A DNA stretch of 64,000 bases from a candidate division WOR-3 bacterium (GCA_020349965.1 CP070705.1:545934-609933), one strand, 5' to 3'; shown: positions 2,808 to 28,002, numbered from the stretch's first letter. The notes: generated by a model from the letters alone, not told the origin. Program-made: numbers and translations.

Positions 2808-3371
2808 ATGGCGTATCAGGGGGTTTCTGTGACATTCTACCAAAATCCTTTCTTCTGGGCTATGATCGGTATGTTTTCTCTGGTCGGCGGTGGTGTGATA
2901 GTGAGCAGCAGGAAATCCGGTTATTCAGTCCTTTACGGAGCTGTTGTCGTGACCGTGTTCGTGCTTGCAAGGGGTGTGCTCGTGCTGCCGTTCTGCATCC
3001 AACCCCGGTTCGAGGCGAACGGGTGGCATCTGTTTGTGGGGGGTGCGATATTTGTCCTTGGGTTGATCTTCAGTGTACCTGCATTGGCCATCAAACCGCT
3101 TACGGCTCCCAATGAGCAGATGAGATTGGTGGTTACGGGATTCTACGCGCTGGTGAGAAACCCGATATACCTTGGTGAAGTTCTGTGGTTTCTTGGCTGG
3201 TCCATAATGTTCCGTTCAGTGATCGGTTTGGCGATCGCCCCTCTGTGGTGGATGGCATTACTGCTACACACACTCGTCGAGGAAGATGCGCTTGAACGCG
3301 CTCTCGGTGAGAAATATCTGGCATACAAAAGAAAGGTTCGCGGCCGTATTATTCCGGGGCTGCCGATATAA
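2808..3371 (+). CDS. ICMT/PEMT-family membrane methyltransferase
   Basis: Multi-TM protein carrying the 'LVRNPIYLGEVLWFLGW' motif that is characteristic of isoprenylcysteine carboxyl methyltransferase / phospholipid methyltransferase family proteins. Confidence 0.55.
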   Translation: MAYQGVSVTFYQNPFFWAMIGMFSLVGGGVIVSSRKSGYSVLYGAVVVTVFVLARGVLVLPFCIQPRFEANGWHLFVGGAIFVLGLIFSVPALAIKPLTAPNEQMRLVVTGFYALVRNPIYLGEVLWFLGWSIMFRSVIGLAIAPLWWMALLLHTLVEEDALERALGEKYLAYKRKVRGRIIPGLPI

Positions 3372-3546: not shown

Positions 3547-3927
3547 ATGGAAACCGCAAATCTATTCGCTGCGTGGGTCGGTATGCTCGTTGGTGCCGTA
3601 GTCGGCGCCTTCAGCGGGCTATTCTTTCATAGGCAAGAGTGGTTTGGTGGTTACGATTCATGGCAACGACGTATGCTGAGGCTTGGACATATTTCTTTCT
3701 TTGGTATCGCTTTCATAAACTTCGCTTTCGTTTTCACGATAATGTACCTCGGTATCAGTAAGCCTTTGTTTTTACCTTCGCTCTTGCTCATAGTCGGTGC
3801 CATCACCATGCCGCTCATTTGTTTTCTGTCTGCATACAAAATGTTCTTCCGTCATCTGTTTTTTATTCCGGTTGTGAGTATCATAATCGCGATGTTCCTC
3901 TTTCTTGTCGGAGGCGTGTTATCATGA
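3547..3927 (+). CDS. Small polytopic membrane protein, translationally coupled to the downstream radical SAM gene
   Basis: Four predicted TM helices. Its stop overlaps the downstream ATG (ATGA). Confidence 0.4.
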   Translation: METANLFAAWVGMLVGAVVGAFSGLFFHRQEWFGGYDSWQRRMLRLGHISFFGIAFINFAFVFTIMYLGISKPLFLPSLLLIVGAITMPLICFLSAYKMFFRHLFFIPVVSIIIAMFLFLVGGVLS

Positions 3928-5252
3928 AGATAGGATTGATTGCCATGAGCGGTATCCGTTGTTGTGACGATGAATTGTTGGAACTCGGGTTGACTTTGCC
4001 TGGCTTTGTCGAACGCAGTAAGGTGATCGCGGCTCTCCCGAGTCTTGGTCTGTTGACGCTGGCCGGTATGACACCTAAGAATCACACAGTCGAGTATATA
4101 GAAGTGCCTGATATAAAGACACTCGATTCGTTGCCTTTGAATTGGGATCTTGTTGGCATCTCGAGTTATTGCGCGCAAATCGATGAGGCCTATGAGCTCG
4201 CCCGGCAGTACAAAGCAGCCGGTGTTCCGGTCGTGCTTGGCGGTCCTCATGTAAGCCATATGCCTGATGAAGCGGCGAAATATTGTGATTCAGTGGTCAT
4301 TGGTGAGGGTGAAGTCACCTGGCTTGATGTTCTGAACGATTGCGAAAGAGGTAAGCTTAAGAGATACTACGGGTCCGTCAAGAACAGCTTTGACCTTTCA
4401 GATGCGCCACTGCCTGCTTTTGAATTACTCGATATCGGCAAGTACAACCGGCTGACTGTTCAGACAAGCCGGGGCTGTACCCATTTATGTGAATTCTGTG
4501 GTAGTTCACCATTGATCACAAACAAATATCGTCAGAAGCCGATAGAGAAGGTGCTCGCAGAGATAGATAAAATAAAGAGCCTGTGGGAAGGCCGCTTCAT
4601 CGAATTCGTGGATGACAACGCGATCGTTGATAAGAAGTATTGGAAGGAATTACTCGCAAAATTGGAGAAAAGAAGGATAAGGTGGTTTGCGGAAACCGAC
4701 CTATCTGTTAGCGAGGACGATGAACTGTTGAGTCTGATGCGTGAAAGCGGCTGTGCACAGGTCTTGATCGGACTCGAGAGTCCTATCGAGGCAGGTCTGA
4801 ATGGGTTGGAGCTCCGCAGTAATTGGAAATATAAGCAATTGCCGAAATACCGGCAAGCGATCAAGAAGATTCAATCCCACGGAATAAGGGTCACAGGTTG
4901 TTTCATCTTCGGCCTCGATGGGCAGACAGCAGACATATTTGACACTGTGGCCGAATTCGCCAAAGAGACAGAACTTTTCGACGTACAGATGACATTTATG
5001 ACGCCATTTGCAGGAACTCCACTCTACGATCGGTTGACGCGGGAAAAGCGGCTCATTCAGGAGAGGGATTGGAAGAAATGCACTCTGTTCGACGTTATGT
5101 TCAAACCGACGGATATGTCGGTGGAAGAATTGAGAAAAGGATTTCGATCCCTGGGCGTGGCGATCTACGGTGAGGATGCTACAAACCGTAGGCGTGAAAC
5201 ATTCAAGAACTATCTCAGGGACGTCGTAAGAAAAAAAGTTGACAGAGATTAG
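3924..5252 (+). CDS. B12-binding (class B) radical SAM protein
   Basis: N-terminal 'MKIGLI..LPSLGLLTLAG' cobalamin-binding-type domain plus a 'CTHLCEFC' CxxxCxxC radical SAM motif. The start was moved to the ATG at 3924, which overlaps the upstream stop; the track ORF begins at 3819. Confidence 0.75.
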   Translation: MKIGLIAMSGIRCCDDELLELGLTLPGFVERSKVIAALPSLGLLTLAGMTPKNHTVEYIEVPDIKTLDSLPLNWDLVGISSYCAQIDEAYELARQYKAAGVPVVLGGPHVSHMPDEAAKYCDSVVIGEGEVTWLDVLNDCERGKLKRYYGSVKNSFDLSDAPLPAFELLDIGKYNRLTVQTSRGCTHLCEFCGSSPLITNKYRQKPIEKVLAEIDKIKSLWEGRFIEFVDDNAIVDKKYWKELLAKLEKRRIRWFAETDLSVSEDDELLSLMRESGCAQVLIGLESPIEAGLNGLELRSNWKYKQLPKYRQAIKKIQSHGIRVTGCFIFGLDGQTADIFDTVAEFAKETELFDVQMTFMTPFAGTPLYDRLTREKRLIQERDWKKCTLFDVMFKPTDMSVEELRKGFRSLGVAIYGEDATNRRRETFKNYLRDVVRKKVDRD

Positions 5253-6394: not shown

Positions 6395-7012
6395 GTGGCA
6401 TACAGTGTGAGTAGGAGAAAGAAGATCGTAGTATTGGCGCCGATCGCGTTGCTGGCGTCGATGTACATTGTCTACCGGCAATTGGCACATGCTTACGGCA
6501 ATCAATTTGCCTGGTATGCAGGATTCTGGGTGTATTGGTTGGGTTGGGGTGCTGTTTTCTCGTTCGCAGTTGCCGGCAAGGAAGAGATACTCAAGTTGAT
6601 TCGTCCGCGAAAACCCAATCATAAAATCGTGCTGTTCGTGATCTTTCCATTGATAATAACGGTGATATTCAGAGTTGCCACCGGGACACAATACGCTAAG
6701 CCAAGCTTTCTGTGGACGGTTCTTTTGATATCAACCGCGTTTGGTAACGGGTTTTTCGAAGAGATTTTGTGGCGTGGCATATATTATAGTTTCTTTCCGA
6801 AGAGTATTTTCTACGGCATAATATGGCCTGCGTGTTGGTTTGCTCTCTGGCACTATATTCCAGGTTCGCTCTCGCCAAATTCGAATGTCATTGGTTTGGT
6901 GATCGGTTCTGGATTGTTCGGGCTTTACCTGGGTTTCTTGTCAAGGAAGACCGGAACAATCTGGTGGTGCATGGTCTGCCACTCAATTGGCGGTATACTG
7001 ATGGTCATGTGA
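6395..7012 (+). CDS. CPBP-family (CAAX/Abi) intramembrane metalloprotease
   Basis: Carries the 'FFEEILWRG', 'FALWH' and 'MVCHSIGG' motifs (EExxxR, FxxxH and HxxxN/G), which are diagnostic of the CPBP family. Confidence 0.65.
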   Translation: MAYSVSRRKKIVVLAPIALLASMYIVYRQLAHAYGNQFAWYAGFWVYWLGWGAVFSFAVAGKEEILKLIRPRKPNHKIVLFVIFPLIITVIFRVATGTQYAKPSFLWTVLLISTAFGNGFFEEILWRGIYYSFFPKSIFYGIIWPACWFALWHYIPGSLSPNSNVIGLVIGSGLFGLYLGFLSRKTGTIWWCMVCHSIGGILMVM

Positions 7013-9007: not shown

Positions 9008-9101
9008 AATACTTAAGCTAAGTCATTTAGTTTGTTGATGGTTAAGTAGAATACTCATATTCTAGATCCCCTCACTTATTAAAGACTTGAAAGGAGAAAA
9101 A
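9008..9101 (+). promoter_or_regulatory. Long conserved csp 5' UTR (candidate cold-responsive RNA thermometer / cold box)
   Basis: About 90% identical to 11320-11411 and partly conserved with 35662-35747. Long structured 5' UTRs are a known feature of cspA-type genes. Confidence 0.45.
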
Positions 9102-9305
9102 ATGACTTACGGAAAAGTCAAATGGTTCGATGGCAGAAAAGGCTATGGTTTCATTGAGAAAGAAGACGGAACCGGTGATGTTTTTGTCCATTATGGCGAC
9201 ATAGCGGGCGGCGGTTATCGTTCACTTAATGAAGGCGATAGAGTTAAGTTTGAGCTTGGCCAGTCTACAAAAGGTCCAAAAGCTACACAAGTCGAACTTG
9301 CATAA
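9102..9305 (+). CDS. csp: Cold-shock protein, CspA family
   Basis: 'MTYGKVKWFDGRKGYGFIEKEDGTGDVFVHYGDI' contains the RNP1 and RNP2 motifs of the cold-shock domain. Confidence 0.9.
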   Translation: MTYGKVKWFDGRKGYGFIEKEDGTGDVFVHYGDIAGGGYRSLNEGDRVKFELGQSTKGPKATQVELA

Positions 9306-9539: not shown

Positions 9540-11018
9540 ATGAAAATACTTCTGGTTTATCCGAAAAATCCGGACACATTCTGGTCGTTCAAACATGCGT
9601 TGAGATTCATTTTCAAAAAAGCGACAAATCCGCCGCTTGGATTGCTCACTGCCGCTGCTATGCTGCCGGATGAATGGGAAAAACGACTCATTGATATGAA
9701 TGTAAGCATGTTGAAGGATCGGGATATCGAATGGGCAGATTTTGTCTTTATCAGTGCGGCAACCATTCAGAAAGATTCGGTAAATGAGGTAATTACGCGC
9801 TGTAAGGCAAGAGGTGTAAAGATTGTTGCCGGGGGACCTTTGTTCACAAGTTCTTATGATGAGTATGAGCATGTTGATTATCTCGTGCTCAATGAGGCGG
9901 AAATAACGCTCCCGCAATTTTTGGATGATTTACGTCAAGGAAAACTCAAGCATATTTACACATCCCCCGAGTGGGCAGACCTGAAAAAAACGCCGGTACC
10001 GGATTGGCGCTTGCTCAATATTAGAAAGTATGCGTCCATGAGTATTCAATACTCACGTGGCTGTCCGTTCGATTGCGATTTCTGCGACATCCCCTTGCTC
10101 TACGGGCATAGGCCTCGTATAAAAAACAGGCAACAGATTATCACCGAACTCCAGAATCTTTACGATCGGGGTTGGCGTGGTGTAGTTTTTTTTGTTGACG
10201 ATAATTTTATCGGGAACAAGCGCGGACTGAAGTCAGAAGTTCTGCCTGCCATCGCCGATTGGATGGAGCGTATGAAGTATCCGTTTACGTTTCTCACTCA
10301 AGCGTCGGTTAACCTGGCAGATGATGAAGAATTGATGAACCTGATGGTCAAGGCCAATTTCAATACCGTTTTTGTTGGTATCGAAACGCCGGATGAAGAG
10401 AGTCTTGCTGAATGCGGGAAGCGTCAGAATAAGAATCGCGACCTGGTCGAGTGCGTCAAAAAGATTCAGCGGTTCGGCCTTCAGGTCCAGGGTGGTTTTA
10501 TCGTTGGTTTTGATAGTGATCCGCTGACCATTTTCGAAAGACAAATACGATTCATCCAAAATAGCGGAATTGTTACTGCGATGGTTGGTTTACTCAATGC
10601 CGTGCGCGGTACGAAACTATACCAGCGTCTCAAAGGCGAGAACCGGTTGTTAACGGAAGCCACGGGCGACAATACGGATTGTTCCCTGAATTTCATCCCT
10701 AAGATGCAGTACACGACACTTCTGGAGGGCTACAGGAATATCGTCAGGACGATTTATGCTCCCGATCAATTCTACGCACGGGTGAAGAAATTTCTGGAGA
10801 ATTACAGGCCATTGCATAATAGCCTGGGGCGTCTTAGTATGAGCGAGATCAAGGCGTTCATACTTTCAATATTTGTCCTCGGCATAAAGGAAAAGGAACG
10901 GTTTCATTACTGGCGTCTTTTTCTCTGGAGCGTTTTCAGCCGACCGCGGCTCGCTCCACTTGCCGTGACTTTTGCAATATACGGCTTTCATTTCAGAAAG
11001 GTATTCGAGAAGACCTGA
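9540..11018 (+). CDS. B12-binding radical SAM protein with C-terminal DUF4070
   Basis: 'MKILLVYP..PPLGLLTAAA' B12-binding-like N-terminus, a 'CPFDCDFC' radical SAM motif, and a C-terminal hydrophobic DUF4070-like tail. Confidence 0.75.
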   Translation: MKILLVYPKNPDTFWSFKHALRFIFKKATNPPLGLLTAAAMLPDEWEKRLIDMNVSMLKDRDIEWADFVFISAATIQKDSVNEVITRCKARGVKIVAGGPLFTSSYDEYEHVDYLVLNEAEITLPQFLDDLRQGKLKHIYTSPEWADLKKTPVPDWRLLNIRKYASMSIQYSRGCPFDCDFCDIPLLYGHRPRIKNRQQIITELQNLYDRGWRGVVFFVDDNFIGNKRGLKSEVLPAIADWMERMKYPFTFLTQASVNLADDEELMNLMVKANFNTVFVGIETPDEESLAECGKRQNKNRDLVECVKKIQRFGLQVQGGFIVGFDSDPLTIFERQIRFIQNSGIVTAMVGLLNAVRGTKLYQRLKGENRLLTEATGDNTDCSLNFIPKMQYTTLLEGYRNIVRTIYAPDQFYARVKKFLENYRPLHNSLGRLSMSEIKAFILSIFVLGIKEKERFHYWRLFLWSVFSRPRLAPLAVTFAIYGFHFRKVFEKT

Positions 11019-11411: not shown

Positions 11412-11615
11412 ATGACTTACGGAAAAGTCAAATGGTTCGATAGCAGAAAAGGCTATGGTTTCATCGAAAAAGAAGACGGAACCGGTGACGTTTTTGTCCA
11501 CTATGGTGACATAGCGGGCGATGGTTATCGATCCCTTAATGAAGGCGAAAGAGTTAAGTTTGAAATAACTCAATCCCCCAAAGGGGCGAAAGCTTCGAAT
11601 GTCGAACTTGCATAA
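11412..11615 (+). CDS. csp: Cold-shock protein, CspA family (paralog 2)
   Basis: Differs from copy 1 at only a few residues. Its 5' UTR is conserved with copy 1. Confidence 0.9.
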   Translation: MTYGKVKWFDSRKGYGFIEKEDGTGDVFVHYGDIAGDGYRSLNEGERVKFEITQSPKGAKASNVELA

Positions 11616-13203: not shown

Positions 13204-13905
13204 ATGACAAAGGAGGTGGGTATGTGCGCGATGCCGCGATCGAAGTTAATCAGACAGGTATTGTTCCGATTCGGACTGGGCGCCATTGTGATGGGTTTGT
13301 TATTCTTCGTGTCGGCCGGCACACTCCGGTTCTGGCACGCTTGGGTCTTCATTGCGATTCTATTCATCCCGATGTTCTTTGTTGTTTTGTATCTGATCAG
13401 AAATGACCCTGCTTTAATTGAACGCCGTATGAGAACCAGAGAGAGGGAACCGTTTCAAAAGAAATCTCAGATAATCTCGACCTTTCTTTATTTGCTTGCA
13501 TTCCTGATACCGGGGCTCGATCATCGTTTTGGGTGGTCATCGGTGCCGGTCGTGTTCGTCGTGATCGCCGACGTGATAGTCTTTCTGGGATATATGCTAT
13601 TCTTTCTTGTATTGCGAGAGAATTCTTATGCTTCGAGGGTCGTTGAGGTTGAGAAAGAACAGAAAGTCATCTCGACCGGGCCATATGCCGTAGTCCGCCA
13701 TCCCATGTACGTTGCTGCTTTGATGATCTTCCTATTCAGTCCCGCGGCACTTGGTTCATTATGGGCATTGTCTGCGATGATACCTTCAATGTTGTTTATA
13801 ATCCCCCGGATCAAAGATGAAGAGCGCTTGCTAACCGCTAATCTCACAGGATATGAGGAGTACACGCGAAGGGTGAAGTATCGACTGTTGCCCCTGTTGT
13901 GGTGA
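13204..13905 (+). CDS. ICMT-family membrane methyltransferase
   Basis: 'EEKVISTGPYAVVRHPMYVAALMIF' C-terminal motif of isoprenylcysteine carboxyl methyltransferase family proteins. Confidence 0.55.
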   Translation: MTKEVGMCAMPRSKLIRQVLFRFGLGAIVMGLLFFVSAGTLRFWHAWVFIAILFIPMFFVVLYLIRNDPALIERRMRTREREPFQKKSQIISTFLYLLAFLIPGLDHRFGWSSVPVVFVVIADVIVFLGYMLFFLVLRENSYASRVVEVEKEQKVISTGPYAVVRHPMYVAALMIFLFSPAALGSLWALSAMIPSMLFIIPRIKDEERLLTANLTGYEEYTRRVKYRLLPLLW

Positions 13906-14139
13906 AGGTTTACGGGGCTGGCGCGTGAGCATTGATCATTTCTTGCGATAGGAGCCGCGTAGTACGTATTGACATAATTCTTGCATAGTATAGAATTACT
14001 GCAGACGAATTCTTGGTAGTATGTAGGATCTGGAGGCGTGCATGATAGGGATATCGTGTAGTCATGGTTCATTCATTTGCCGGGCATGTCGAATTATTAC
14101 ACAAGATCCTAGGAGTGAAGCACAAAAATAGCGAAGATC

Positions 14140-17100
14140 ATGTATTATCTATTATTATGTTTGTGTTGTTTGATGTACCCTGCTGATATCGGCGCAGATA
14201 CCATCATAGTTATTCAGACATTGGATAGTCTGCTTGAACAGAGTGCGACGCATGCCGAAAGCTTCGAATTTGAGGAGGCAATATCTGTGTGCCGGGCTTC
14301 ACTTGCGATTGAATCCTTATTACAGGAGTACGGTATGGTCGCTCAAACATTTTATCGCATTGGTGAAGCATTTTACGAGTTGTCTGAATATGACAGTTCG
14401 CTGTATTACCTCGACTCGGCCCTGGTGCTTGCACGTGTGCTTAAGAGCGAGGATCTTGAATGCCACATTCTAAACAAAGTTGGTGAAAACAACGAGCGGT
14501 TGAGCGAGTTTGAAAAGGCGCTCGCGTTCTATGACTCGGCGCTTGCAGTGGCAATTGCCACGAAGGATAAGCGTATTGAAGGTCTCATCTTATGCAATAT
14601 CGGATGGACCCTCGATGCCTTGAGCAAATATGAAGAGGCTTTTGTGTATCATGATTCAGCCCATGCTATAGCACATGCAGTTGGAGACAAACGCTTAGAA
14701 GGTCGGATCCTGCGGCGGCTTGGGACTGCTTGCAGCGTGCTTGGCCAATTCGATCGCGCCCTTGCGTGCTACGATTCGGCGCTCGTGATCGCGCATCAGA
14801 CCAACGACAGGCGACTTGAAGGCCGCACGCTTATGGGCATAGGCCGCGTAAAGTTTGCGCTCGACGACTATGATGAAACACTGGCGATCAACCGACTTGC
14901 GCTTGATGTGATGCGCGCTACCAGAGATAGGGTATCAGAAGGATATGTGCTCGATTGTAGTGGCATGGCTTATCGTATGCTCTGCGAATATGATAGCGCG
15001 TTTGCATGTCACCGGGCTGCATTGACTATCAGGAGGAAGGTAAAAGACCGTATGGGTGAGGGGAACGCACTGGTGAATTTGGGGCTGACGTACATCGACG
15101 AGTACAAGTATGAAGAAGCGCTTGCATACCTGGATTCCGGATTGGCTATCGCGAAGGCAATTAAAAACCACACGGGGAAAGAGATCATCTATATCTCGGT
15201 TGGTTCAATATTCGACGATTTAGCACATTATGAAAACGCTTTGGCGTATTATGACTCGGCGCTTGTGATATCACGGGAGACAGGTGAGAAAATGAGAGAG
15301 GGCTCACTGCTTATGTATATCGGAGGAATTTACCACGACCTGAAGCAGTATGAGCGGGCACTTCTGTATTACGATTCTGCTTGGGTGTGTCTAAGAGAGC
15401 TGAGGATAGAATATACTGATGCGCTGATCCTCGTGTACGCCGGTGCTGCCTACTGTGCACTAAAGCAATACAGAAGAGCTTTGAGTGTTTATGATTCGGC
15501 ACTGGTGACAATTCGGACAATAGATGAGCAGAGATTGGAAGGTGTGATATTGCATAACATGAGCAACGTGTATTTTGACCTTGGACAATATGATACGGCT
15601 TCCGCTTATCTTGATTCAGCGTTTGTGCTAGTCGACAAGGTTCATAATATGTTTCGCAAGGCTTCTATCCTATGCCGGAGGGGTACAATTCTTCGTATGC
15701 AAGAGAAGTATGATCGTGCTCTTTCGTACTATGATTCGGCGCTCGTGGTGGCAAGAGAGATAAGGGACCAAAGCACAGAAGGCACAACACTTCACGAGAT
15801 CGGTTATTTGCATGAGCAGGTCTCGGATATAGAAAATGCTGTTGCATTTTACAAACAGTCTATTGATGTAAAAGAATCCATCAGGGAAGCATTGCAGCAC
15901 GAAGAGCTGAAATCCTATTACATTGAAGCGGAGAGGGACATCTACGAACGATTAATCAACTTGCTCATCATATTACAACGCTACAAAGAAGCATTTGATT
16001 ATATGGAGCGGAGTCGTTCGCAGAAGATACGGCGAAAACTCGAGAGGCAGGATATCGTGGCCTTTGACCCTTCGCTTAGAAGGATACAGCAGCGCATTAA
16101 TTTCGCTGAGGCAGAGATGCACGGGTTGAATTTGAGATTGCGAGAAAGAAGATTGCCGCACGATGAGTATGTTCAGAAAATGACCGAGCTTGAAGGCAGG
16201 CGCAATCAGCTTATGTTTGATTTGAAAACCTATCACCCCGAGTACTATAATTTCATGGTACCCCACATCATATCACTGGAAACCGTTCAGGGCTGGATTC
16301 CAGAAAACACAGTGTTTGTGGAATACGTACTAACTGGTGAGCACTACACTGTGTTTCTCGTTGCGGACAAATTATTTTTGCTGAAGAAACTAACATATCC
16401 CCGGTCTCTTATCGACAGTGTGGTACGTGACGCACTAAGCGATCTTAGATGGTTGCGCGATAAGACGGTGATCGATGCCCACCTCCAAGATCTGTACTTG
16501 TTACTAATGGAACCATTAGAAGCGACGTTGAATGATTTTAGCGATGTTGTCATCATTCCTTGGGGATTACTTCATTATGTGCCGTTTCATGCTTTGAGGA
16601 AGAACAGGGCGCAAGGCGGCGGGTACGAATACATGATGGAATGGAAGAGGGTCAATTACCTGCCATCGGCTCAATTTTTGCAGGACTTGTCGCCCATCGA
16701 ACGCAAGCAAGAAGAAAAGTTATTGGCATTCGCGAATTGCGACGGCACGTTACCCTGCGCAGAAATCGAGGTCGACTCAATCTGCGAGATATACCCCGAT
16801 GCGTGTATCTGCAAGAAAGACAGCGCGACAAAGGAACAGTTCATCACGATGTGTGGCGAATACGAGCTACTCCATCTGGCCACACACGGGATCCTTGATC
16901 CTGATCCGCGTTTTTCCCATATTGTCTTTGCGCCGACAGGTTCGGGCAATCTCACGGTCAGAGAAATACTTGGTCTGTCCGGACGTTTTGATCACACTTC
17001 TCTTGTCACGCTCTCGTCGTGTGAAACGGCCATCGAAGAGGATCCCGAGAAGGCAGGTACGGAATTGACAACACTCGCCGTGGGATTCAAGATGGCGGGT

Positions 17101-17301
17101 GTCCCCAGTATCGTAGCAACGCTCTGGGAGATAGCAGACCGCTCGACCGCGGTTTTCATGAAGCACTTCTATGCGAACGTAAAAGTCGGAAAGAGCCGAA
17201 GCGAGTGCCTAAGGGAGGCGCAGATAGCTGTGAAGGAGCATTCCGATTACGCGCACCCTTATTATTGGGCGCCTTTTATCTTGATTGGCAGCTGGCAGTA
17301 A
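14140..17301 (+). CDS. TPR-repeat protein with C-terminal CHAT (caspase-like) protease domain
   Basis: About 12 TPR-like repeats with a recurring 'A..YYDSAL' motif span residues 30-560. The C-terminus carries 'LLHLATHG' (His) and 'LVTLSSCETA' (Cys), the catalytic-dyad context of CHAT domains. Confidence 0.75.
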   Translation: MYYLLLCLCCLMYPADIGADTIIVIQTLDSLLEQSATHAESFEFEEAISVCRASLAIESLLQEYGMVAQTFYRIGEAFYELSEYDSSLYYLDSALVLARVLKSEDLECHILNKVGENNERLSEFEKALAFYDSALAVAIATKDKRIEGLILCNIGWTLDALSKYEEAFVYHDSAHAIAHAVGDKRLEGRILRRLGTACSVLGQFDRALACYDSALVIAHQTNDRRLEGRTLMGIGRVKFALDDYDETLAINRLALDVMRATRDRVSEGYVLDCSGMAYRMLCEYDSAFACHRAALTIRRKVKDRMGEGNALVNLGLTYIDEYKYEEALAYLDSGLAIAKAIKNHTGKEIIYISVGSIFDDLAHYENALAYYDSALVISRETGEKMREGSLLMYIGGIYHDLKQYERALLYYDSAWVCLRELRIEYTDALILVYAGAAYCALKQYRRALSVYDSALVTIRTIDEQRLEGVILHNMSNVYFDLGQYDTASAYLDSAFVLVDKVHNMFRKASILCRRGTILRMQEKYDRALSYYDSALVVAREIRDQSTEGTTLHEIGYLHEQVSDIENAVAFYKQSIDVKESIREALQHEELKSYYIEAERDIYERLINLLIILQRYKEAFDYMERSRSQKIRRKLERQDIVAFDPSLRRIQQRINFAEAEMHGLNLRLRERRLPHDEYVQKMTELEGRRNQLMFDLKTYHPEYYNFMVPHIISLETVQGWIPENTVFVEYVLTGEHYTVFLVADKLFLLKKLTYPRSLIDSVVRDALSDLRWLRDKTVIDAHLQDLYLLLMEPLEATLNDFSDVVIIPWGLLHYVPFHALRKNRAQGGGYEYMMEWKRVNYLPSAQFLQDLSPIERKQEEKLLAFANCDGTLPCAEIEVDSICEIYPDACICKKDSATKEQFITMCGEYELLHLATHGILDPDPRFSHIVFAPTGSGNLTVREILGLSGRFDHTSLVTLSSCETAIEEDPEKAGTELTTLAVGFKMAGVPSIVATLWEIADRSTAVFMKHFYANVKVGKSRSECLREAQIAVKEHSDYAHPYYWAPFILIGSWQ

Positions 17302-17329
17302 AGCGGCAAGTCAGTTCTTGTTTCCTGCT

Positions 17330-17635
17330 CTATGGTCGTGTTTCGATACTTCCGCCTGGAGGACCGGGTGGTCTAGGTTCTGGTTGCGTGTCGGCTTCTA
17401 TACCCTTGAGAATAACAGCCCGCGCCTCTGGTGGGATTTTCAATTGGAGTTTAATGAGGTTGTCTTGAATCGTTACCGTTCTATCATAATGAGCCGATAA
17501 CTCGACGAGGTAATCCTGGATTTCCTTTATCTCGCTCTTTACCTCGTTCAGCTCTTCCCTGCTTACGCCAGTACCCTGGCATCCGACCATCATCACGCAG
17601 ACGATGGCGCTTGCTATGGTTAAGATTTTAACCAT
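17330..17635 (-). CDS. Small lipoprotein with a Pro-rich C-terminus
   Basis: Signal peptide plus a 'MVGC' lipobox, a coiled-coil-like middle and a 'PEPRPPGPPGG' tail. It converges on the CHAT gene. Confidence 0.4.
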   Translation of the reverse strand: MVKILTIASAIVCVMMVGCQGTGVSREELNEVKSEIKEIQDYLVELSAHYDRTVTIQDNLIKLQLKIPPEARAVILKGIEADTQPEPRPPGPPGGSIETRP

Positions 17636-18104
17636 GTCTCCTCCTTGTTTCGAATCCTGTTAATGGCTTCGATGTCGGACTGGAGTCCGTGCAGATAAGG
17701 ACTTATAGAATGGAGTTGTATAAGGCGCATCGCGTGGCGTTGTTCTGGGAGAATGTCTAGAAAATACGGGGTGCATTGTATGATCCTTACTATCATCTGT
17801 TGCCCCAATCCTATCTACTTCGACAATCAATGTTATTTTATACGTGAAGGACTGTAAGTCAACAGAGAAGAGGATCTAATGTTGACCACACGTAAGAAGA
17901 TGGTCTGTATAGCACTGACTGACGCTGTTGATGAATCTAATCAGCCCGTAGTATGAATATAGACCCCAGTTCCGCCACTGCGGCGATTCGGCAACATGAT
18001 CTGCGTGTGAGCGGCTCTGCGATCGATATTTTCAAAGAGGAATAAGGTAGGCACCACCTTCGTTCGTAGCTTGGTCATGTCCATCATTTCTGATGTTCCG
18101 CCGG

Positions 18105-18133
18105 TTGACAGCCGTTTGTCATTCATGTATTAT
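18105..18133 (+). promoter_or_regulatory. Sigma70 promoter (TTGACA-N17-TATTAT)
   Basis: Seen directly in the sequence. Confidence 0.45.
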
Positions 18134-18171
18134 GGTTGGTGACATTATACAGCATTATTTTGGTCAGAACG

Positions 18172-18199
18172 TTGACCGATGTTTCACGAATAGTATAAT
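18172..18199 (+). promoter_or_regulatory. Sigma70 promoter (TTGACC-N16-TATAAT) immediately upstream of the C25-like peptidase gene
   Basis: Seen directly in the sequence, with an AAGGAGG RBS at 18204-18210. Confidence 0.5.
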
Positions 18200-18210
18200 G
18201 TATAAGGAGG

Positions 18211-20358
18211 ATGAAATTGAAGCTATTGATGACCTTTATGATTTGCACGATAGGTTGGGCAAATGTGCTGAGAGTGAACGTGGCAGCACCAGCCTACACC
18301 TTTGAAGAAGATCGATTGGTCGTATGTGGCGCTGCGTACCGTAATCCGATCGGCGCGCCTGCACTTCCGTGTAGAGTGGTTACAATAGCCTTGCCGCCGG
18401 GCGCAATAGTAGAGGCGGCTGATTTCCACGGCGTATGGCGTGAAGTGGGTGAAGTGTTCGTGCCACCGTCTGAACCTTCCCTTCCTCTATCATACGGTAC
18501 TGCTGTGGAAGAACTGCTCGAGCAGTTCAGATGGGCAAACGAGCTGTATTACCATTCTAGTCAAATATATCCGGCTTCCTATGGTAGTATCATCTCGACC
18601 GGTGGATTACGCAAGTATACGTTGGTTACGGTGGCGTGTAATCATTTTGCATATAATACGATTGCCGGAATGTTGTATTGTTCAGAAAACATAACAGTTG
18701 ATATTTATTATACATTGCCGCCTCCGTCAAGTAATCGAACAATCTATTGGAACGGTTTGAACGATGATGTCACATTCGACGCGATCGCGAAAGATCTAAT
18801 CTATAATTGGAATGACGCGCAAGTCTGGTATCACACTGATGAACCTAATCGTGCGAACGGTTATTACATCATAGTACCAACGGCACTTCAAGGTGCGGTT
18901 GATGCACTCGTGCAACACCGACAGAACCAGGGATATGATGTTGAAATAGTGACGAAGGAATATATAGATGCTAATGTCTCTGGCATTGATATCCAGGCAC
19001 GATTGAGGAACTTTCTGAGGGCGAACGTGGCGGACATAGAATATGTGCTGCTCGTTGGTTTCTCGACCGATATGCCGTGGAGGAACTTGGTGCCTTTCAA
19101 TAACGACCCGAATAGCCCCTATAATCATCCTGATTACTCACCGATACCGAGCGATCTCTATTATGCCGAATTGACTGACCCGGACAGCGTGTCATGGAAC
19201 AGTGACGGTGATTCATATTACGGAGAAGTATATACAGAGAATTTTCAGCCGATGGGTGAGGATGATCCAGATTACCATGCGGATGTGCACCTTGGGCGCA
19301 TTCCGTTTAGTGACCAGAACACGATCGAAGACATTTGCGCAAAGACGATTGCTTTTGATACGGACAACGATGTCGGGTACAAAACGGCTTCTCTATTGAC
19401 CGGGGCCATTTACTATTACGCAAACGAAAACAGTACTGGCAATGCCCGCAGGGATGGCGCGGAATATTGCGAGCAATTGCTTATTGATTCGGTCCTTCCT
19501 CGTGCGAGCGCAGTGACTCTCTATGAAAAGGGAGGGCTTGATCCGTGCACGCTCTCCTGTACGGACTCGCTCACGAGGAGCAATCATGTAGTGTACTGGC
19601 AGAATAAGGGGATCATGTATGAAGCCCATCACGGCAATGTGCCGCTGTATGCGCGCAAATTGTGGGCATGGGATGACGGCGATCTTATTCCCGAAGACCC
19701 TGAGATCACCTGGCCGACATCATTCTATATCACGGATGTGTACCTCTTGGATAATGATCACCCTTCAACATGCTTTCTCCGTTCATGCCTTTGCGGAAAA
19801 CCCGAGGAGACTAGTCTGGGTGCTATGCTCTTGTATCGCGGCGGCTCCAGTGTAATCAGCAGTTCACGTATCTCATGGGGGAGCCTGGCCGACCCTGGCG
19901 GCATTCCGTACCACTTCTATAACAGGTTAATTCAGGATACAGTTGCGAGCGGTGGTATTATCGGGATTGCCTATGACGTTGCCCGAAATGATTTCATGGG
20001 CAATACCGGCTTTTGGCTGCCGGCTTACCATTACAATCTTTTCGGTGATCCAGCGCTGAGACAATTCGGGCAATTTGTCGGGATAGCGGAGAATGAAATC
20101 GAAGCCCCGCGTTTTGTTCTGAGTGTTTTCCCGAACCCATCGCGCGGTAAGATTAGGTGCAGCCTTCACTCAGACCAGGAACGGTCAATTGATTTCGACG
20201 TCTATGATGTATCAGGGCGTTTGGTAAGAAGTATTCGGTCTGACGCATCATATGGGCATAGTGTTTATGTGGACATAAGCCTTCCTTCCGGTGTATACTT
20301 TCTAATATGTAACAATGGCGCGAATGATTTTCAAGAGAAGATTGTTATTACGGAATAG
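18211..20358 (+). CDS. Secreted gingipain-like (peptidase C25 family) protein with T9SS C-terminal sorting domain
   Basis: Signal peptide, then 'YYIIVPTALQGAVDALVQHRQNQGYDVEIVTKEYI...YVLLVG' and 'YEAHHGN', which resemble the C25 catalytic-domain signatures. The C-terminal 'VYDVSGRLVRSI...GVYFLICNNG...EKIVITE' is a Por/T9SS CTD-like beta-sandwich. Confidence 0.5.
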   Translation: MKLKLLMTFMICTIGWANVLRVNVAAPAYTFEEDRLVVCGAAYRNPIGAPALPCRVVTIALPPGAIVEAADFHGVWREVGEVFVPPSEPSLPLSYGTAVEELLEQFRWANELYYHSSQIYPASYGSIISTGGLRKYTLVTVACNHFAYNTIAGMLYCSENITVDIYYTLPPPSSNRTIYWNGLNDDVTFDAIAKDLIYNWNDAQVWYHTDEPNRANGYYIIVPTALQGAVDALVQHRQNQGYDVEIVTKEYIDANVSGIDIQARLRNFLRANVADIEYVLLVGFSTDMPWRNLVPFNNDPNSPYNHPDYSPIPSDLYYAELTDPDSVSWNSDGDSYYGEVYTENFQPMGEDDPDYHADVHLGRIPFSDQNTIEDICAKTIAFDTDNDVGYKTASLLTGAIYYYANENSTGNARRDGAEYCEQLLIDSVLPRASAVTLYEKGGLDPCTLSCTDSLTRSNHVVYWQNKGIMYEAHHGNVPLYARKLWAWDDGDLIPEDPEITWPTSFYITDVYLLDNDHPSTCFLRSCLCGKPEETSLGAMLLYRGGSSVISSSRISWGSLADPGGIPYHFYNRLIQDTVASGGIIGIAYDVARNDFMGNTGFWLPAYHYNLFGDPALRQFGQFVGIAENEIEAPRFVLSVFPNPSRGKIRCSLHSDQERSIDFDVYDVSGRLVRSIRSDASYGHSVYVDISLPSGVYFLICNNGANDFQEKIVITE

Positions 20359-20393
20359 CGATGTGGAAGGCATAATCCGGAAGGTAATACAGA

Positions 20394-21002
20394 ATGGATG
20401 ATATCATCTGGGCCACGCCGCTTTACGAATTTCTATGGCAGTGTAATGCAGCTCCGTTAGACCGAAATGTTTTGGATTGCGGAGCCGGTTCGTCTGCAAA
20501 CCGCCCTCCCCCGCTTCTTCTTTTCTTCCAGCAGGGATATGTAACGTACGGTATCGAGATTACCGAGGAGGGGCTGGCGAATGCGCACCAATTCTGCATT
20601 GAGAATGATAAACCTTTGAATATCTTGCGAGGTGATATGAGGCGGATTCCGTTCGCGGCAGGAACCTTCAGTTTTGTATACTCTTACAATGCAATATTCT
20701 TCATGACCAAAGCGGACATTGCACGCGCCATGCTCGAGATAGAAAGGGTCCTAAAACGCAACGGTATATGCTTTGTGAATTTTCTGTCGGTGGATGATCC
20801 GGATAGAAGGCCATTCTGCGAAAGTTCCTTTGCACGGCGAATGCTCGGCAGCAAACAGTTCTCCCGTTTTCGTGACAATGAGGCAGACGTATATTTCGGC
20901 CATTTCGAAATTCTGCGCAAGGAGAAGCGACTTGTCGAAAAATTGTTCGATGGCAAGAGGATTAAGCAAGCGTATATAGATTATATTGCAAGGAAATGTT
21001 GA
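20394..21002 (+). CDS. Class I SAM-dependent methyltransferase
   Basis: 'VLDCGAGSS' glycine-rich motif I and a ~200-aa Rossmann-like size. Confidence 0.6.
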   Translation: MDDIIWATPLYEFLWQCNAAPLDRNVLDCGAGSSANRPPPLLLFFQQGYVTYGIEITEEGLANAHQFCIENDKPLNILRGDMRRIPFAAGTFSFVYSYNAIFFMTKADIARAMLEIERVLKRNGICFVNFLSVDDPDRRPFCESSFARRMLGSKQFSRFRDNEADVYFGHFEILRKEKRLVEKLFDGKRIKQAYIDYIARKC

Positions 21003-21059
21003 TTGCTTGTCCGCTTGGGTCGCCGATGCAAGCGATACGCTCATCACAAGGAGTAGGTT

Positions 21060-25164: not shown

Positions 25165-26778
25165 ATGAGAGTGAGTGTGATGGTTCTTAGCTTGCTGCTT
25201 CTGATCTCTGGTTACGTTCATGCCACACAATATCTTATCAGGATCGATGCCCGGGCAGGGCAGGATTTGCAGATCGTTGAGTTGATCGATGGATATGCAC
25301 TGCTCGTTGCAAATGACGAAATGTTGCAGGAATTCGGTGAAAAGAAAACTGATTACGTCATTCTTGACGAAAATCCCTCCGATAAGTTTTATCTCTTTGT
25401 TTTTCCTCTCGCTGAAGATGTAGAGAGTATTGCGCGGTTCGGTATGATCATTGATAACTATGAAGAGTGTGTTCTGATAGCGACGACACCGGATAACATA
25501 CGGCTATTGAATCGTTTACAGGTAGAGCTAGAGCAGCTGACACTCAAACCGATCGTGCGGCGGGATCTTGGGGATCTTGACTATTACGACTTCGATGATT
25601 TTCCAGTCACGAGAGATACTCTTATTGAGCAGATGCTTAATGAGGTCGATCCGGAGAATATTACGAACATAGTGTGGACCCTGCAGAATATGTACACGCG
25701 ATTCTCGATGAGCGACTCAAACAGGATAACCGCTGTGAACTATATCGACAGCATGCTCATTGCATACGGGTGCGATAGTGTTTACCGGCATAGTTTTTCA
25801 AGTTTGTACGGCGATAATGTCGTAGGTATTAGAATGGGGGAGTATTATCCGACGACACAATGCTACGTTTTGATCGGCGGGCACCTCGATGACGTCCCGG
25901 ATTACGGGTATGCACCTGGTGCCGATGATAATGCCTCGGGAGTGGCTGCAATGCTCGAGGCAGCCCGCGTAGTGAGTGACTATGATTTCGAGCGCACGAT
26001 AAGGTTTGCCGCCTTCAATGCTGAAGAACAAGGCCTGATAGGAAGCGACTACCTGGCTGCTGAGGCGAGCAGCGAGGGTGATACCATCATCGCTGCTCTT
26101 TGTTACGACATGATCGGGTATGTTACTGCTCCGCTGCTTGATACGATGCGGCTGAGGTACACGACTGCCGTACCCGGCTGTAGTCTGTTTACGTGCGATT
26201 TTTATCAGACGGTTGCAGATACTTACACTCAACTGAAAATACGTCCGGTACGCTACACGGGGACAAGCGGTTCCTCTGACCACGCGAGTTTCTGGCAGCA
26301 TGGTTATATATCAACCGGGGGCATCGAGCGCGTTCTGTGTCCAGGTTACCACACGGTCGGCGATTCCATCGGCCCGACCGGGTTCAACAATATTGAATTC
26401 GCAACTGAGGTCATTAGGACGGCAATAGCTGTGCTTGCTACAATTGCCGTTCCGATCGATTCAGGTACTGCCGTAAGTGAATTGTCGACATTTGAGAGTT
26501 CTCCCCTTTTTATTGTCAGGCCAAACCCCGGGGAAAGTTTCGATATTAGTTTTGCGATCGATAATGAATTTGAAAATGTCGATCTAGTAGTGTACGATTG
26601 CATGGGGCGTTTCGTTCAAAGGCTTGTGTCAGGGCGCTATTACCGGGGTGTTTACTCGTGCCGCTGGGATGGGAACACTACAGATGGCTCTGAAGTAACA
26701 CCCGGGGTCTATTTCTTGGCGCTAAGGTCTGAGGGCAGAACTGAAAGACGTAAGATCATATTACTCGATTGGCCATAG
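25165..26778 (+). CDS. Secreted M28-family peptidase with T9SS C-terminal sorting domain
   Basis: 'GGHLDDV...GADDNASGVAAMLEAAR' and 'FAAFNAEEQGLIGS' are the metal-binding signatures of M28. The C-terminal 'VYDCMGRFVQRLV...GVYFLALRS' is a T9SS CTD. Confidence 0.75.
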   Translation: MRVSVMVLSLLLLISGYVHATQYLIRIDARAGQDLQIVELIDGYALLVANDEMLQEFGEKKTDYVILDENPSDKFYLFVFPLAEDVESIARFGMIIDNYEECVLIATTPDNIRLLNRLQVELEQLTLKPIVRRDLGDLDYYDFDDFPVTRDTLIEQMLNEVDPENITNIVWTLQNMYTRFSMSDSNRITAVNYIDSMLIAYGCDSVYRHSFSSLYGDNVVGIRMGEYYPTTQCYVLIGGHLDDVPDYGYAPGADDNASGVAAMLEAARVVSDYDFERTIRFAAFNAEEQGLIGSDYLAAEASSEGDTIIAALCYDMIGYVTAPLLDTMRLRYTTAVPGCSLFTCDFYQTVADTYTQLKIRPVRYTGTSGSSDHASFWQHGYISTGGIERVLCPGYHTVGDSIGPTGFNNIEFATEVIRTAIAVLATIAVPIDSGTAVSELSTFESSPLFIVRPNPGESFDISFAIDNEFENVDLVVYDCMGRFVQRLVSGRYYRGVYSCRWDGNTTDGSEVTPGVYFLALRSEGRTERRKIILLDWP

Positions 26779-27855: not shown

Positions 27856-28002
27856 TTACTTTTCTGTCCTTCTCCGATCCTCTCCCGACCTTCGGTCTTT
27901 GCCGCTTCTACGTTCCGGTCCTTTGTAGTTAGGATCCTGAGACTTCCTGCGTTCTTTCCCGGACCTACGTTCTTCCCCAGACCTGCGGTTCTTCTTTTCC
28001 AT
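27856..28002 (-). CDS. 48-aa arginine-rich repeat microprotein (MEKKNRRSGEERRSGKERRKSQDPNYKGPERRSGKDRRSGEDRRRTEK)
   Basis: Not in the ORF track because it is under 60 aa. It has a textbook AAAGGAGGG RBS 8 nt before the ATG and a perfect TTGACA-N18-TATAAT promoter upstream. The product contains 4 imperfect ERRSG(K/E) repeats. Confidence 0.45.
   Translation of the reverse strand: MEKKNRRSGEERRSGKERRKSQDPNYKGPERRSGKDRRSGEDRRRTEK

What the first reader, a model, noticed from the sequence alone, without database searches (positions are those of the whole stretch)
14140..17635. Large TPR–CHAT (caspase-like) protein with a convergent small lipoprotein
The 1053-aa protein has ~12 N-terminal TPR repeats with a recurring A..YYDSAL motif. 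A helical linker follows, then a C-terminal CHAT domain with an intact His ('HLATHG') and Cys ('SSCETA') dyad. TPR–CHAT architectures occur in several signalling and defence contexts, and their triggers and targets are essentially unknown. The gene has its own upstream promoter-like element and is directly followed by a convergent lipoprotein gene with a Pro-rich tail that could be a partner or substrate.
Basis: partly seen in the sequence, partly recalled or inferred. Interest (0 to 1): 0.5.

Follow-up and report, generated by a model that had tools for sequence, protein, structure and literature searches.

The report
Exported TPR-CHAT protease with partner lipoprotein
A large caspase-like (CHAT) protease with a long TPR repeat arm, probably exported to the periplasm of an uncultured WOR-3 bacterium, always sits tail-to-tail with a tiny, otherwise unknown lipoprotein that ends in a proline-rich tail, which gives a concrete candidate partner or substrate for a poorly understood class of proteases.

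Summary

Three points are new.
1. The orthologues have Sec-type signal peptides. NCBI's start at 14173 cuts off this hydrophobic N-terminus. The protease is therefore probably periplasmic, not cytoplasmic like Csx29 or separase.
2. The convergent 101-aa gene (17330-17635, -) encodes a lipoprotein with a heptad-patterned helix and an invariant DTxPxP(R/K)PPxPP tail. Its family is tiny: 5 clusters among 1.84 billion representatives. In all 18 contigs examined it lies 17-76 bp from the stop of a TPR-CHAT orthologue, although the flanking genes differ.
3. Orthologues that lack it carry an ABM-like (lipo)protein instead, and they differ from the window protein mainly in TPR units 5-13.

Best reading: an exported caspase-like protease that uses its TPR arm to engage a dedicated lipoprotein as anchor, regulator or substrate. 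There is no defence-system context. Interest is moderate.

The parts
13969..13996 (+). Sigma-70-like promoter match (TTGACA, 16 nt, TAGAAT) about 145 nt upstream of the CHAT gene start
   Evidence: It matches 11 of 12 positions, but the number of such sites in the region equals the shuffle expectation, so it is only a candidate. The whole 5' intergenic region is 86% identical in the 90%-orthologue locus L002.
14128..14184 (+). Signal-peptide-like N-terminus, (MAKI)MYYLLLCLCCLMYPA|DIG. The ATA at 14128-14130 is ATG in close relative P0141. The ORF as listed starts at ATG 14140, and NCBI starts it at 14173.
   Evidence: Orthologues P0002-P0007 have a canonical n-region, h-region and A-x-A-like cleavage site. 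pLDDT is 53-57 for residues 1-20.
14140..17301 (+). TPR-CHAT gene, 1053 aa (NCBI UCF71195.1, 'CHAT domain-containing protein')
14296..15855 (+). TPR array: 13 units of exactly 40 aa (aa 53-572), LGN/Pins-like peptide-binding superhelix
   Evidence: Units 5-10 (aa 213-452, nt 14776-15495) are conserved at 60-67% in lipoprotein-bearing orthologues but only 38-39% in orthologues without it.
15856..16299 (+). All-helical linker (aa 573-720)
   Evidence: AF2 secondary structure. Conserved at 51-55% across all orthologues.
16300..17298 (+). CHAT caspase-like domain (aa 721-1053): N-terminal half aa 721-860 and catalytic half aa 861-1053
16885..16887 (+). Catalytic His916 codon (CAC) in HLATHG
   Evidence: Aligns with H585 of Sb TPR-CHAT and H862 of DdvA. 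Nearly invariant in 78 homologues.
17020..17022 (+). Catalytic Cys961 codon (TGT) in SSCETA
   Evidence: Aligns with C627 of Sb TPR-CHAT and C907 of DdvA. Nearly invariant in 78 homologues.
17302..17329 (.). 28-bp gap between the two convergent stop codons
   Evidence: Gaps in other loci are 17-76 bp.
17330..17635 (-). Gene for the 101-aa lipoprotein (NCBI UCF71196.1, hypothetical protein JSW49_02655)
17579..17635 (-). Lipoprotein signal peptide and lipobox (aa 1-19; Cys19 at 17579-17581, followed by invariant QG)
17438..17560 (-). Long amphipathic helix aa 26-66 with a heptad (3.5-residue) hydrophobic pattern, coiled-coil-like
   Evidence: AF2 model. Periodicity analysis of alignment A5.
17333..17392 (-). 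Pro-rich C-terminal tail (aa 82-101) with the family-invariant motif D-T-x-P-x-P-(R/K)-P-P-x-P-P; predicted disordered
17636..17650 (-). Ribosome-binding site of the lipoprotein gene (AAGGAGGAGAC immediately before the ATG)

Best explanation
This is a two-gene envelope module of a candidate-division WOR-3 bacterium.

Gene 1 encodes a Sec-exported, soluble periplasmic TPR-CHAT protein. It is a clan-CD, caspase/separase-like cysteine protease with catalytic His916 and Cys961, preceded by a 13-unit, 40-residue-period TPR superhelix and a helical linker.

Gene 2 lies convergent, 28 bp away. It encodes a small membrane-anchored lipoprotein built from a lipid-modified Cys19, a roughly 40-residue heptad-patterned helix (probably a coiled-coil stalk) and a disordered polyproline tail with an invariant DTxPxP(R/K)PPxPP motif.

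The most likely mechanism is that the concave groove of the TPR superhelix, with units 5-10 as the candidate surface, binds the extended Pro-rich tail and/or the helix of the lipoprotein. This would tether the protease to the membrane and control its activity, much as securin, Cas7-11 or an adaptor lipoprotein controls related or analogous proteases. Alternatively, the TPR arm presents the lipoprotein as the dedicated substrate. The downstream role would be regulated proteolysis in the cell envelope, not antiviral abortive infection.

Shown here: the domain architecture, the dyad placement, the fold, signal-peptide-like N-termini across orthologues, the lipoprotein features, strict two-way gene linkage in changing contexts, and TPR divergence that coincides with a change of partner.

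Inferred: export, catalytic activity, the physical interaction, which partner acts on which, and the biological role.

My estimates: active-type CHAT fold 0.95; exported 0.7; functional coupling with the lipoprotein 0.6; TPR-tail binding as the contact 0.35.
For: Fold and active site:
- Pfam CHAT E=1e-54 over the full profile.
- H916/C961 align with the experimentally defined dyads of Sb TPR-CHAT (H585/C627) and DdvA (H862/C907).
- AF2 mean pLDDT 91.6, pTM 0.84.
- His916 follows strand 910-914 and Cys961 follows strand 955-958, as in caspase-type folds.

Export:
- Orthologues P0002-P0007 begin with a positively charged n-region, a hydrophobic core and IYA|D, ALA|G, VFA|E or ASA|E sites.
- Close relatives start MAKIMYYLILCLCCLMYPA (P0141) or GTG-KYKKTKIMYYLLSCLCSLMYP (L002).
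- 70 of 120 wider TPR-CHAT homologues pass a crude signal-peptide test.
- DdvA gives a published precedent for a periplasmic TPR-CHAT.

Linkage:
- Starting from CHAT orthologues of 53-90% identity, a homologous convergent lipoprotein gene is always present.
- Starting from lipoprotein homologues, including the most divergent one, a convergent CHAT orthologue is always present.
- On the lipoprotein's other side the neighbour differs between loci: a C25 peptidase (window, L021), Lactamase_B (L002), a 50-aa ORF plus S41 peptidase (L003 type) or a Y1 transposase (L006, L016).
- The lipoprotein family is found nowhere else: 14 clusters in 5.8 billion sequences, 5 representative clusters at E<=1e-10 in 1.84 billion, and 1 of 185,579 species genomes.

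Partner-specific TPR:
- Against orthologues that have the lipoprotein, TPR units 5-10 are 60-67% identical, as conserved as the catalytic core (65-69%).
- Against orthologues that lack it, TPR units 5-10 fall to 38-39%, while the core (66-68%) and the linker (51-53%) are unchanged.
- Those orthologues instead carry a co-directional ABM-like protein. Two of the three copies have a lipobox and Pro-rich 'TEEPxxP' ends.

The TPR part resembles peptide-binding TPRs: LGN/Pins at 20-26% identity, APPBP2 bound to an RxxGP degron, and Rap/NprR.

Lipoprotein model: helix 26-66, helix 69-83 and a disordered tail, with a strong 3.5-residue hydrophobic periodicity.
Against: - No direct evidence of an interaction.
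- The two genes are convergent, so they are not co-transcribed. All loci come from one narrow lineage (WOR-3 relatives), so inherited synteny cannot be fully excluded.
- The window copy lacks a positively charged n-region if translation starts at ATG 14140. The codon that is ATG in P0141 is ATA here.
- No dedicated signal-peptide predictor was available.
- The window protein has 22 Cys, and only C905 and C961 are invariant. That is unusual for proteins of an oxidising periplasm, though less of a concern in an anaerobe.
- Orthologues at 43-47% identity lack this lipoprotein, and one of their ABM-like neighbours (L008) has no signal peptide.
- Dyad geometry could not be measured because model coordinates are not exposed.
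- Protease specificity is unknown.
Confidence: 0.5

Rival explanations
1. The TPR-CHAT protein is an exported or membrane-proximal protease that acts on other envelope proteins. The small lipoprotein is merely a syntenic neighbour with an unrelated function, for example an Lpp-like structural stalk.
For: The genes are convergent and have separate promoters. All loci belong to a narrow group of WOR-3-like genomes. Orthologues at 43-47% identity do without this lipoprotein.
Against: The pair stays together while both flanks are rearranged, with four different neighbours on the lipoprotein side. It even persists next to a transposase and across an indel that removes the C25 + methyltransferase block. 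No lipoprotein homologue was found anywhere without the CHAT gene. Loss of the lipoprotein coincides with divergence confined to the TPR arm.
Confidence: 0.27
2. It is a cytoplasmic defence or conflict-system protease of the Csx29 / CBASS-CHAT / gasdermin-activating kind, switched on by an infection signal to cleave a toxic effector.
For: TPR-CHAT proteins are best known from type III-E CRISPR (Craspase) and other conflict systems. The closest structural matches are Csx29. There is a weak NCBIfam Csx29 hit on the CHAT domain.
Against: The NCBIfam Csx29 score is 51.8 bits against a cut-off of 300. PADLOC returns only generic TPR models and nothing for the neighbours. No cas7-11, Csx30/31, CD-NTase, SAVED, gasdermin, NTPase or ECF sigma gene lies within about 15 kb or in any orthologue locus; the neighbours are metabolic or envelope genes. 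The signal peptide argues against a cytoplasmic location. Only one weak hit in 50,697 phage records.
Confidence: 0.08
3. The lipoprotein is specifically the substrate. The TPR arm docks the Pro-rich tail, and the CHAT domain clips the lipoprotein off its lipid anchor or removes its tail, releasing a periplasmic signal peptide. This differs from the anchor/regulator version only in who acts on whom.
For: Known CHAT proteases have single dedicated substrates encoded nearby: Csx29 with Csx30 and HetF with PatU3. DdvA is proposed to self-cleave a linker next to its membrane anchor. The lipoprotein has flexible segments on both sides of its helices.
Against: No recognisable cleavage motif, because CHAT specificity is unknown here. 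The invariant residues of the lipoprotein cluster in the Pro tail and the lipobox, not at an obvious scissile site.
Confidence: 0.2
4. The CHAT domain is a catalytically dead scaffold, and the protein works only as a TPR adaptor.
For: DdvA's CHAT site is described as incomplete. Activity cannot be shown in silico.
Against: His916 and Cys961 are invariant in the 8 orthologues and nearly invariant in 78 homologues. The catalytic half is the most conserved region of the protein.
Confidence: 0.05

Closest known systems
[quoted passage not shown]
   Different: DdvA is itself membrane-anchored, with an N-terminal zinc-binding anti-sigma domain and a TM helix. It pairs with an ECF sigma factor and controls a CBASS/CRISPR island. 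The window protein has only a signal peptide, no anti-sigma domain and no sigma gene nearby, and its membrane link, if any, would be supplied in trans by a separate lipoprotein.
Csx29 / TPR-CHAT of type III-E CRISPR (Craspase)
   Different: Csx29 is cytoplasmic, about 700 aa with fewer TPRs, and bound to Cas7-11-crRNA. The NCBIfam Csx29 model scores only 51.8 of the 300 bits required. No CRISPR genes are present here.
Separase (peptidase family C50) with securin
   Different: Separase is eukaryotic, works in the nucleus/cytoplasm and is much larger. There is no sequence relationship between securin and the lipoprotein.
HetF of Anabaena (CHAT protease that degrades PatU3)
   Same: A bacterial CHAT protease with a specific, genetically linked substrate and a membrane association.
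   Different: The topology is reversed: in HetF the CHAT domain is cytoplasmic, followed by a TM segment and periplasmic TPRs.
NlpI-Prc and BepA (E. coli periplasmic protease systems that use TPR modules); a functional analogy only
   Same: A periplasmic protease whose substrate choice or membrane localisation depends on a TPR module and an outer-membrane lipoprotein (papers listed; the mechanism is from my own knowledge of these systems).
   Different: The protease classes are unrelated (S41 and M48). In NlpI-Prc the TPRs are on the lipoprotein, whereas here they are on the protease.
Braun's lipoprotein Lpp and proline-rich membrane anchors such as PRiMA; analogies for the small protein
   Same: A small lipid-anchored protein dominated by one heptad-patterned helix. 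A Pro-rich segment that could serve as an attachment peg; four family members give a weak PRIMA1 Pfam hit (E=0.09, below cut-off).
   Different: No significant Pfam or PDB match. No C-terminal Lys for peptidoglycan attachment. The family is restricted to TPR-CHAT loci.

Membership tests
CHAT domain family (Pfam PF12770; clan CD caspase-like peptidases) | Match to the family HMM above the curated cut-off, over the whole domain | tested here: met
   186.4 bits against a cut-off of 24, E=1e-54, profile positions 3-289 of 289, aa 781-1051.
CHAT domain family (Pfam PF12770; clan CD caspase-like peptidases) | Catalytic His (followed by Gly) and Cys at the positions of characterised members | tested here: met
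   H916-G917 and C961 align with H585/C627 of Sb TPR-CHAT and H862/C907 of DdvA (the dyads are documented). Invariant in 8 orthologues and at least 90% conserved in 78 homologues.
CHAT domain family (Pfam PF12770; clan CD caspase-like peptidases) | Caspase/separase-type alpha/beta fold | tested here: met
CHAT domain family (Pfam PF12770; clan CD caspase-like peptidases) | Cys-dependent endopeptidase activity; His-Cys distance compatible with catalysis | not testable with these tools
   Needs biochemistry. Model coordinates are not exposed, so the distance could not be measured.
TPR-CHAT architecture (TPR_12-type repeats N-terminal to CHAT) | Multiple TPR units followed by CHAT in one polypeptide | tested here: met
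   TPR_12 E=1e-52. 13 units of 40 aa. 26 paired helices in the model.
Type III-E CRISPR Csx29 (Craspase protease) | NCBIfam NF041237 at or above the cut-off | tested here: not met
   51.8 bits against a cut-off of 300, and only the CHAT half matches.
Type III-E CRISPR Csx29 (Craspase protease) | Encoded next to cas7-11/gRAMP, csx30, csx31 and a CRISPR array | tested here: not met
   None within about 15 kb in the window or in the orthologue loci.
DdvA-like TPR-CHAT anti-sigma factors | N-terminal zinc-binding anti-sigma domain plus a TM helix before the TPR-CHAT; adjacent ECF sigma gene | tested here: not met
   The protein starts with a short signal peptide and goes straight into the TPRs. 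No sigma gene among the neighbours.
Bacterial gasdermin / CBASS protease-effector systems | Adjacent gasdermin, CD-NTase or SAVED partner; PADLOC system model | tested here: not met
   PADLOC gives only generic TPR hits. The neighbours carry no such domains.
Sec-exported (periplasmic) protein | N-terminal signal peptide with n-, h- and c-regions | tested here: inconclusive
   Clear in orthologues P0002-P0007 and P0141. The window copy keeps the h-region and c-region but lacks a charged n-region unless the ATA at 14128 initiates. No SignalP-type predictor and no experiment.
Bacterial lipoprotein (small ORF) | Signal peptide ending in a lipobox with an invariant Cys | tested here: met
   M-V-G-C19. 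Position -1 is G, A, S or Y and Cys is invariant in 14 family members, followed by an invariant QG.
Braun lipoprotein Lpp family (small ORF) | Pfam LPP match; C-terminal Lys for peptidoglycan linkage | tested here: not met
   No Pfam family reaches its cut-off, even when listing hits up to E=10. The C-terminus is ...SIETRP.

The most novel reading that the evidence does not exclude
Signal-peptide-bearing TPR-CHAT proteins may form a widespread but unstudied class of periplasmic caspase-like proteases. In this WOR-3 lineage the dedicated Pro-tailed coiled-coil lipoprotein would act as a securin-like membrane anchor and pseudo-substrate that threads its polyproline tail through the TPR superhelix and keeps the protease latent. 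Envelope damage or a surface signal would then release or cleave the lipoprotein and unleash proteolysis in the periplasm, giving a separase/securin-type switch operating outside the cytoplasm.
Probability: 0.15. Interest if true: 0.65.

Novelty: new variant of a known kind. Interest (0 to 1): 0.42.

Why it matters
CHAT proteases are abundant in bacteria, but substrates and triggers are known for only a handful: Csx29-Csx30, HetF-PatU3, separase-cohesin, and a proposal for DdvA. All the well-understood ones act in the cytoplasm.

This locus gives a clean and minimal test case for the other kind. It is a probably periplasmic TPR-CHAT with an intact active site and a single, strictly co-inherited 82-residue mature lipoprotein as candidate anchor, regulator or substrate. 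There is also a natural comparison set: sister orthologues that swapped the partner and changed only their TPR arm.

By a crude test, more than half of the retrieved TPR-CHAT homologues look exported, so whatever is learnt here may apply to a large unannotated group.

It also corrects the public annotation, whose start codon removes the signal peptide.

Tried and rejected
- Complex prediction: I built fused CHAT-linker-lipoprotein sequences with paired orthologue rows (A4).
- The afdb50 fold library was unavailable.
- Defence-system reading: PADLOC gave only generic TPR hits, the Csx29 model is far below its cut-off, no defence genes lie in the flanks, and there is one weak phage hit. Rejected.
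- C25 gingipain-like peptidase (18211-20358) as a third component: it is adjacent in the window and in L021 and lies nearby in L006, but it is absent from L002 and from the L003-type loci. Not part of the core module.
- 50-aa Arg-rich ORF upstream of the lipoprotein gene in L003-type loci as a third component: its window homologue lies 10 kb away next to the S41 peptidase (27859-28002), so it travels with S41 and not with the pair. Rejected.
- Recent repeat expansion of the TPR array: no DNA tandem repeats.
- Regulatory RNA in the intergenic regions: no Rfam match at E<=1 and no notable inverted repeats.
- Promoter and terminator scans are not above the shuffle expectation.
- Known-family assignment for the lipoprotein: Pfam, NCBIfam, PADLOC and PDB sequence searches return nothing significant, only designed coiled coils.
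- Lipoprotein homologues elsewhere in the orthologue loci that lack it: none found by HMM search of six-frame ORFs.


Full report
**1. What is there**

The window holds an ORF at 14140..17301 (+), 1053 aa. A convergent ORF lies at 17330..17635 (-), 101 aa, 28 bp beyond its stop.

The small protein is 100% identical to NCBI UCF71196.1 (hypothetical protein JSW49_02655, candidate division WOR-3 bacterium, contig of 2.30 Mb). NCBI lists the large protein as UCF71195.1, 'CHAT domain-containing protein', but starts it at the second Met (14173, 1042 aa). So the domain family is already annotated.

**2. The large protein**

- Pfam: CHAT PF12770 at E=1e-54 across the full profile (aa 781-1051), and TPR_12 at E=1e-52.
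- The TPR region is 13 units with a strict 40-residue period (aa 53-572). The A..Y(Y)DSAL motif recurs at 40-residue spacing. There is no DNA-level tandem repeat.
- The AlphaFold2 model, built on a 78-sequence alignment, has mean pLDDT 91.6 and pTM 0.84. It shows 26 paired TPR helices, an all-helical linker (aa ~573-720) and an alpha/beta domain (aa 721-1053).
- HLATHG is at aa 912-917 and SSCETA at aa 959-964. In the phmmer alignments H916-G917 and C961 pair with H585/C627 of the Scalindua TPR-CHAT (7x8a_D) and with H862/C907 of DdvA (8rot_B). Those are the dyads identified by mutagenesis or structure in PMC9729208 and PMC11506125. Desulfonema Csx29 uses H615/C658.
- The dyad is invariant in the eight orthologues and at least 90% conserved in 78 homologues.
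This is a CHAT domain with catalytic residues in place.

**3. It is probably exported**

Orthologues P0002-P0007 begin with textbook Sec signal peptides, for example MKIKHAVAIQYLSMNFVILLLCSFTFALA|GDQ and MISRVSTIYFVVLFLCSNIYA|DTE.

The window copy starts MYYLLLCLCCLMYPA|DIG, so it has the h-region and c-region but no charged n-region. A relative in the same 90% cluster starts MAKIMYYLILCLCCLMYPA (P0141). The window has ATA where that relative has ATG (14128-14130). The 90% orthologue in L002 has an in-frame GTG giving (M)KYKKTKIMYYLL....

Residues 1-20 have low confidence in the model and are not part of the fold.

In a crude hydrophobicity test, 70 of the 120 best homologues have signal-peptide-like N-termini.

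The only characterised extracytoplasmic TPR-CHAT I could find is the periplasmic domain of the anti-sigma factor DdvA. HetF has the opposite topology.

Two caveats apply. No dedicated predictor was available. The window protein also has 22 Cys, of which only C905 and C961 are invariant.

**4. The small protein**

- It has a signal peptide, a lipobox (MVGC19), an invariant QG after the Cys and a strong RBS.
- AF2 predicts a long helix (aa 26-66), a short helix (aa 69-83) and a disordered tail.
- Across the family, the hydrophobic positions of the long helix show a sharp 3.5-residue periodicity, which is coiled-coil-like.
- The tail carries the invariant motif D-T-x-P-x-P-(R/K)-P-P-x-P-P.
- Nothing in Pfam, NCBIfam, PADLOC or PDB matches it significantly.
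- The family is tiny. There are 14 clusters in the 5.8-billion-sequence collection. Five representative clusters reach E<=1e-10 among 1.84 billion representatives. Only one of 185,579 species genomes, WOR_3 SM23_42, encodes it.

**5. The two genes form a module**

Starting from CHAT orthologues of 90, 57, 54 and 53% identity, a homologous lipoprotein gene is convergent and immediately downstream every time (L001/2, L003-5, L006, L011).

Starting from lipoprotein homologues, a convergent TPR-CHAT orthologue is present every time (L012-L021). This includes the most divergent member, P0136. Where the contig cuts the neighbour, I verified it by BLAST at 49-68% identity. The gaps between the stop codons are 17-76 bp.

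That makes 18 contigs and about 11 distinct sequence pairs, with no exception.

The surroundings are not constant. On the lipoprotein's far side there are four different neighbours:
- a C25 peptidase (window, L021)
- Lactamase_B (L002)
- a 50-aa ORF followed by an S41 peptidase (L003 type)
- a Y1 transposase (L006, L016)

The upstream side varies as well. In L006 the pair sits downstream of the C25, methyltransferase and Lactamase_B block, whereas in the window it sits upstream of that block.

**6. A natural control**

Orthologues at 43-47% identity (P0005-7) lack the lipoprotein. They have instead a co-directional ABM-like protein. These three proteins are homologous to each other, and two of them have a lipobox and 'KTEEPxxP' Pro-rich linkers and C-termini.

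Region-by-region identity to the window protein:

| Region | Orthologues with the lipoprotein (P0002-4) | Orthologues without it (P0005-7) |
|---|---|---|
| Catalytic core | 65-69% | 66-68% |
| Linker | 53-55% | 51-53% |
| TPR units 5-10 | 60-67% | 38-39% |

So the divergence is concentrated in the TPR arm, and it coincides with the change of neighbour. This is what one would expect if that part of the arm is the partner-binding surface.

The arm resembles peptide-binding TPRs: LGN/Pins at 20-26% identity, APPBP2 with an RxxGP degron, and Rap/NprR.

**7. Context**

Within about 15 kb there are metabolic and envelope genes: ICMT/PEMT, an MFS transporter, B12-radical SAM enzymes, cold-shock proteins, T9SS-tailed C25 and M28 peptidases, an S41 peptidase and flavin reductases. 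There are no CRISPR, CBASS, gasdermin, NTPase or ECF-sigma genes.

PADLOC finds only generic TPR models. Csx29's NCBIfam model scores 51.8 of the 300 bits required. No Rfam family matches in the intergenic regions. The promoter-like site at 13969-13996 is a good match, but the count of such sites is not above chance.

**8. Interpretation**

The best-supported reading is an exported caspase-like protease whose TPR arm engages a dedicated, membrane-anchored, Pro-tailed lipoprotein. The lipoprotein would either act as tether and regulator, in the manner of securin or an adaptor lipoprotein, or be the substrate itself.

Architecture, dyad, fold, linkage and the pattern of TPR divergence are shown. 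Export, activity, the physical contact and the biological role are inferred.

The main rival is that the lipoprotein is just a passenger of local synteny (about 0.27). A cytoplasmic defence role is unlikely (about 0.08), and a catalytically dead scaffold is very unlikely.

**9. Verdict**

The protein is an ordinary, already annotated member of the TPR-CHAT family. The new elements are its likely periplasmic location, a mis-set start codon in the public record, and a strictly conserved two-gene module with a previously undescribed lipoprotein family.

I rate it a new variant of a known kind, with moderate interest (0.42).

Noticed in passing
L007:3584-4147(+), L008:6894-7280(+), L010:4268-5116(+): In TPR-CHAT orthologues of 43-47% identity the Pro-tailed lipoprotein is replaced by a co-directional ABM-like protein (PF03992, weak). 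The L007 and L010 copies have a signal peptide and lipobox (ISSC, ISNC) and repeated 'KTEEPxxP' Pro-rich linkers and C-termini. The L008 copy has no signal peptide. This may be a non-homologous replacement of the partner.
   Followed up: partly
window 14128-14173: NCBI's start for the CHAT gene (14173, 1042 aa) removes the hydrophobic signal-peptide-like N-terminus. The longest ATG ORF starts at 14140. A relative in the same 90% cluster (P0141) starts four codons further upstream at a codon that is ATA in the window.
   Followed up: yes
window 27859-28002(-) and L003:11628-11780(-), L011:3711-3860(-), L012-L015: A conserved 49-50-aa, extremely Arg-rich ORF (MEFKERRSGKERRSGKDRRKFQDPNYKGPERR...) always lies next to an S41 peptidase gene (window 28117-29466). 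In L003-type loci this places it right beside the lipoprotein gene. Function unknown.
   Followed up: partly
window 18211-20358(+): A C25 (gingipain-family, also clan CD) peptidase with a T9SS C-terminal sorting domain lies divergent from the lipoprotein gene, here and in L021. A second T9SS-tailed peptidase (M28, 25165-26778) lies nearby. The organism therefore has type IX secretion cargo and an outer membrane.
   Followed up: partly
window ~17953-21050 versus L002:5194-5520: Relative to the 90%-identical locus L002, the window carries an extra block (C25 peptidase plus a class I methyltransferase) between the lipoprotein gene and the Lactamase_B gene. The first ~317 bp upstream of the lipoprotein gene are 79.5% identical between the two loci.
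   Followed up: partly
window 2808-3371, 6395-7012, 13204-13905: Two ICMT/PEMT-type membrane methyltransferases and an Rce1-like CAAX-type endopeptidase lie in the same 14 kb. This enzyme set recalls eukaryotic CAAX processing. It was not investigated.
   Followed up: no
window 3819-5252, 9540-11018; 9087-9305, 11412-11615: Two paralogous B12-binding radical SAM/DUF4070 genes, and two nearly identical cold-shock (CSD) genes that flank the second one.
   Followed up: no
L006:11979-12791, L016:639-1427: A Y1 (IS200/IS605-type) transposase sits divergent from the lipoprotein gene in two loci, which suggests the pair lies at a rearrangement-prone spot.
   Followed up: no
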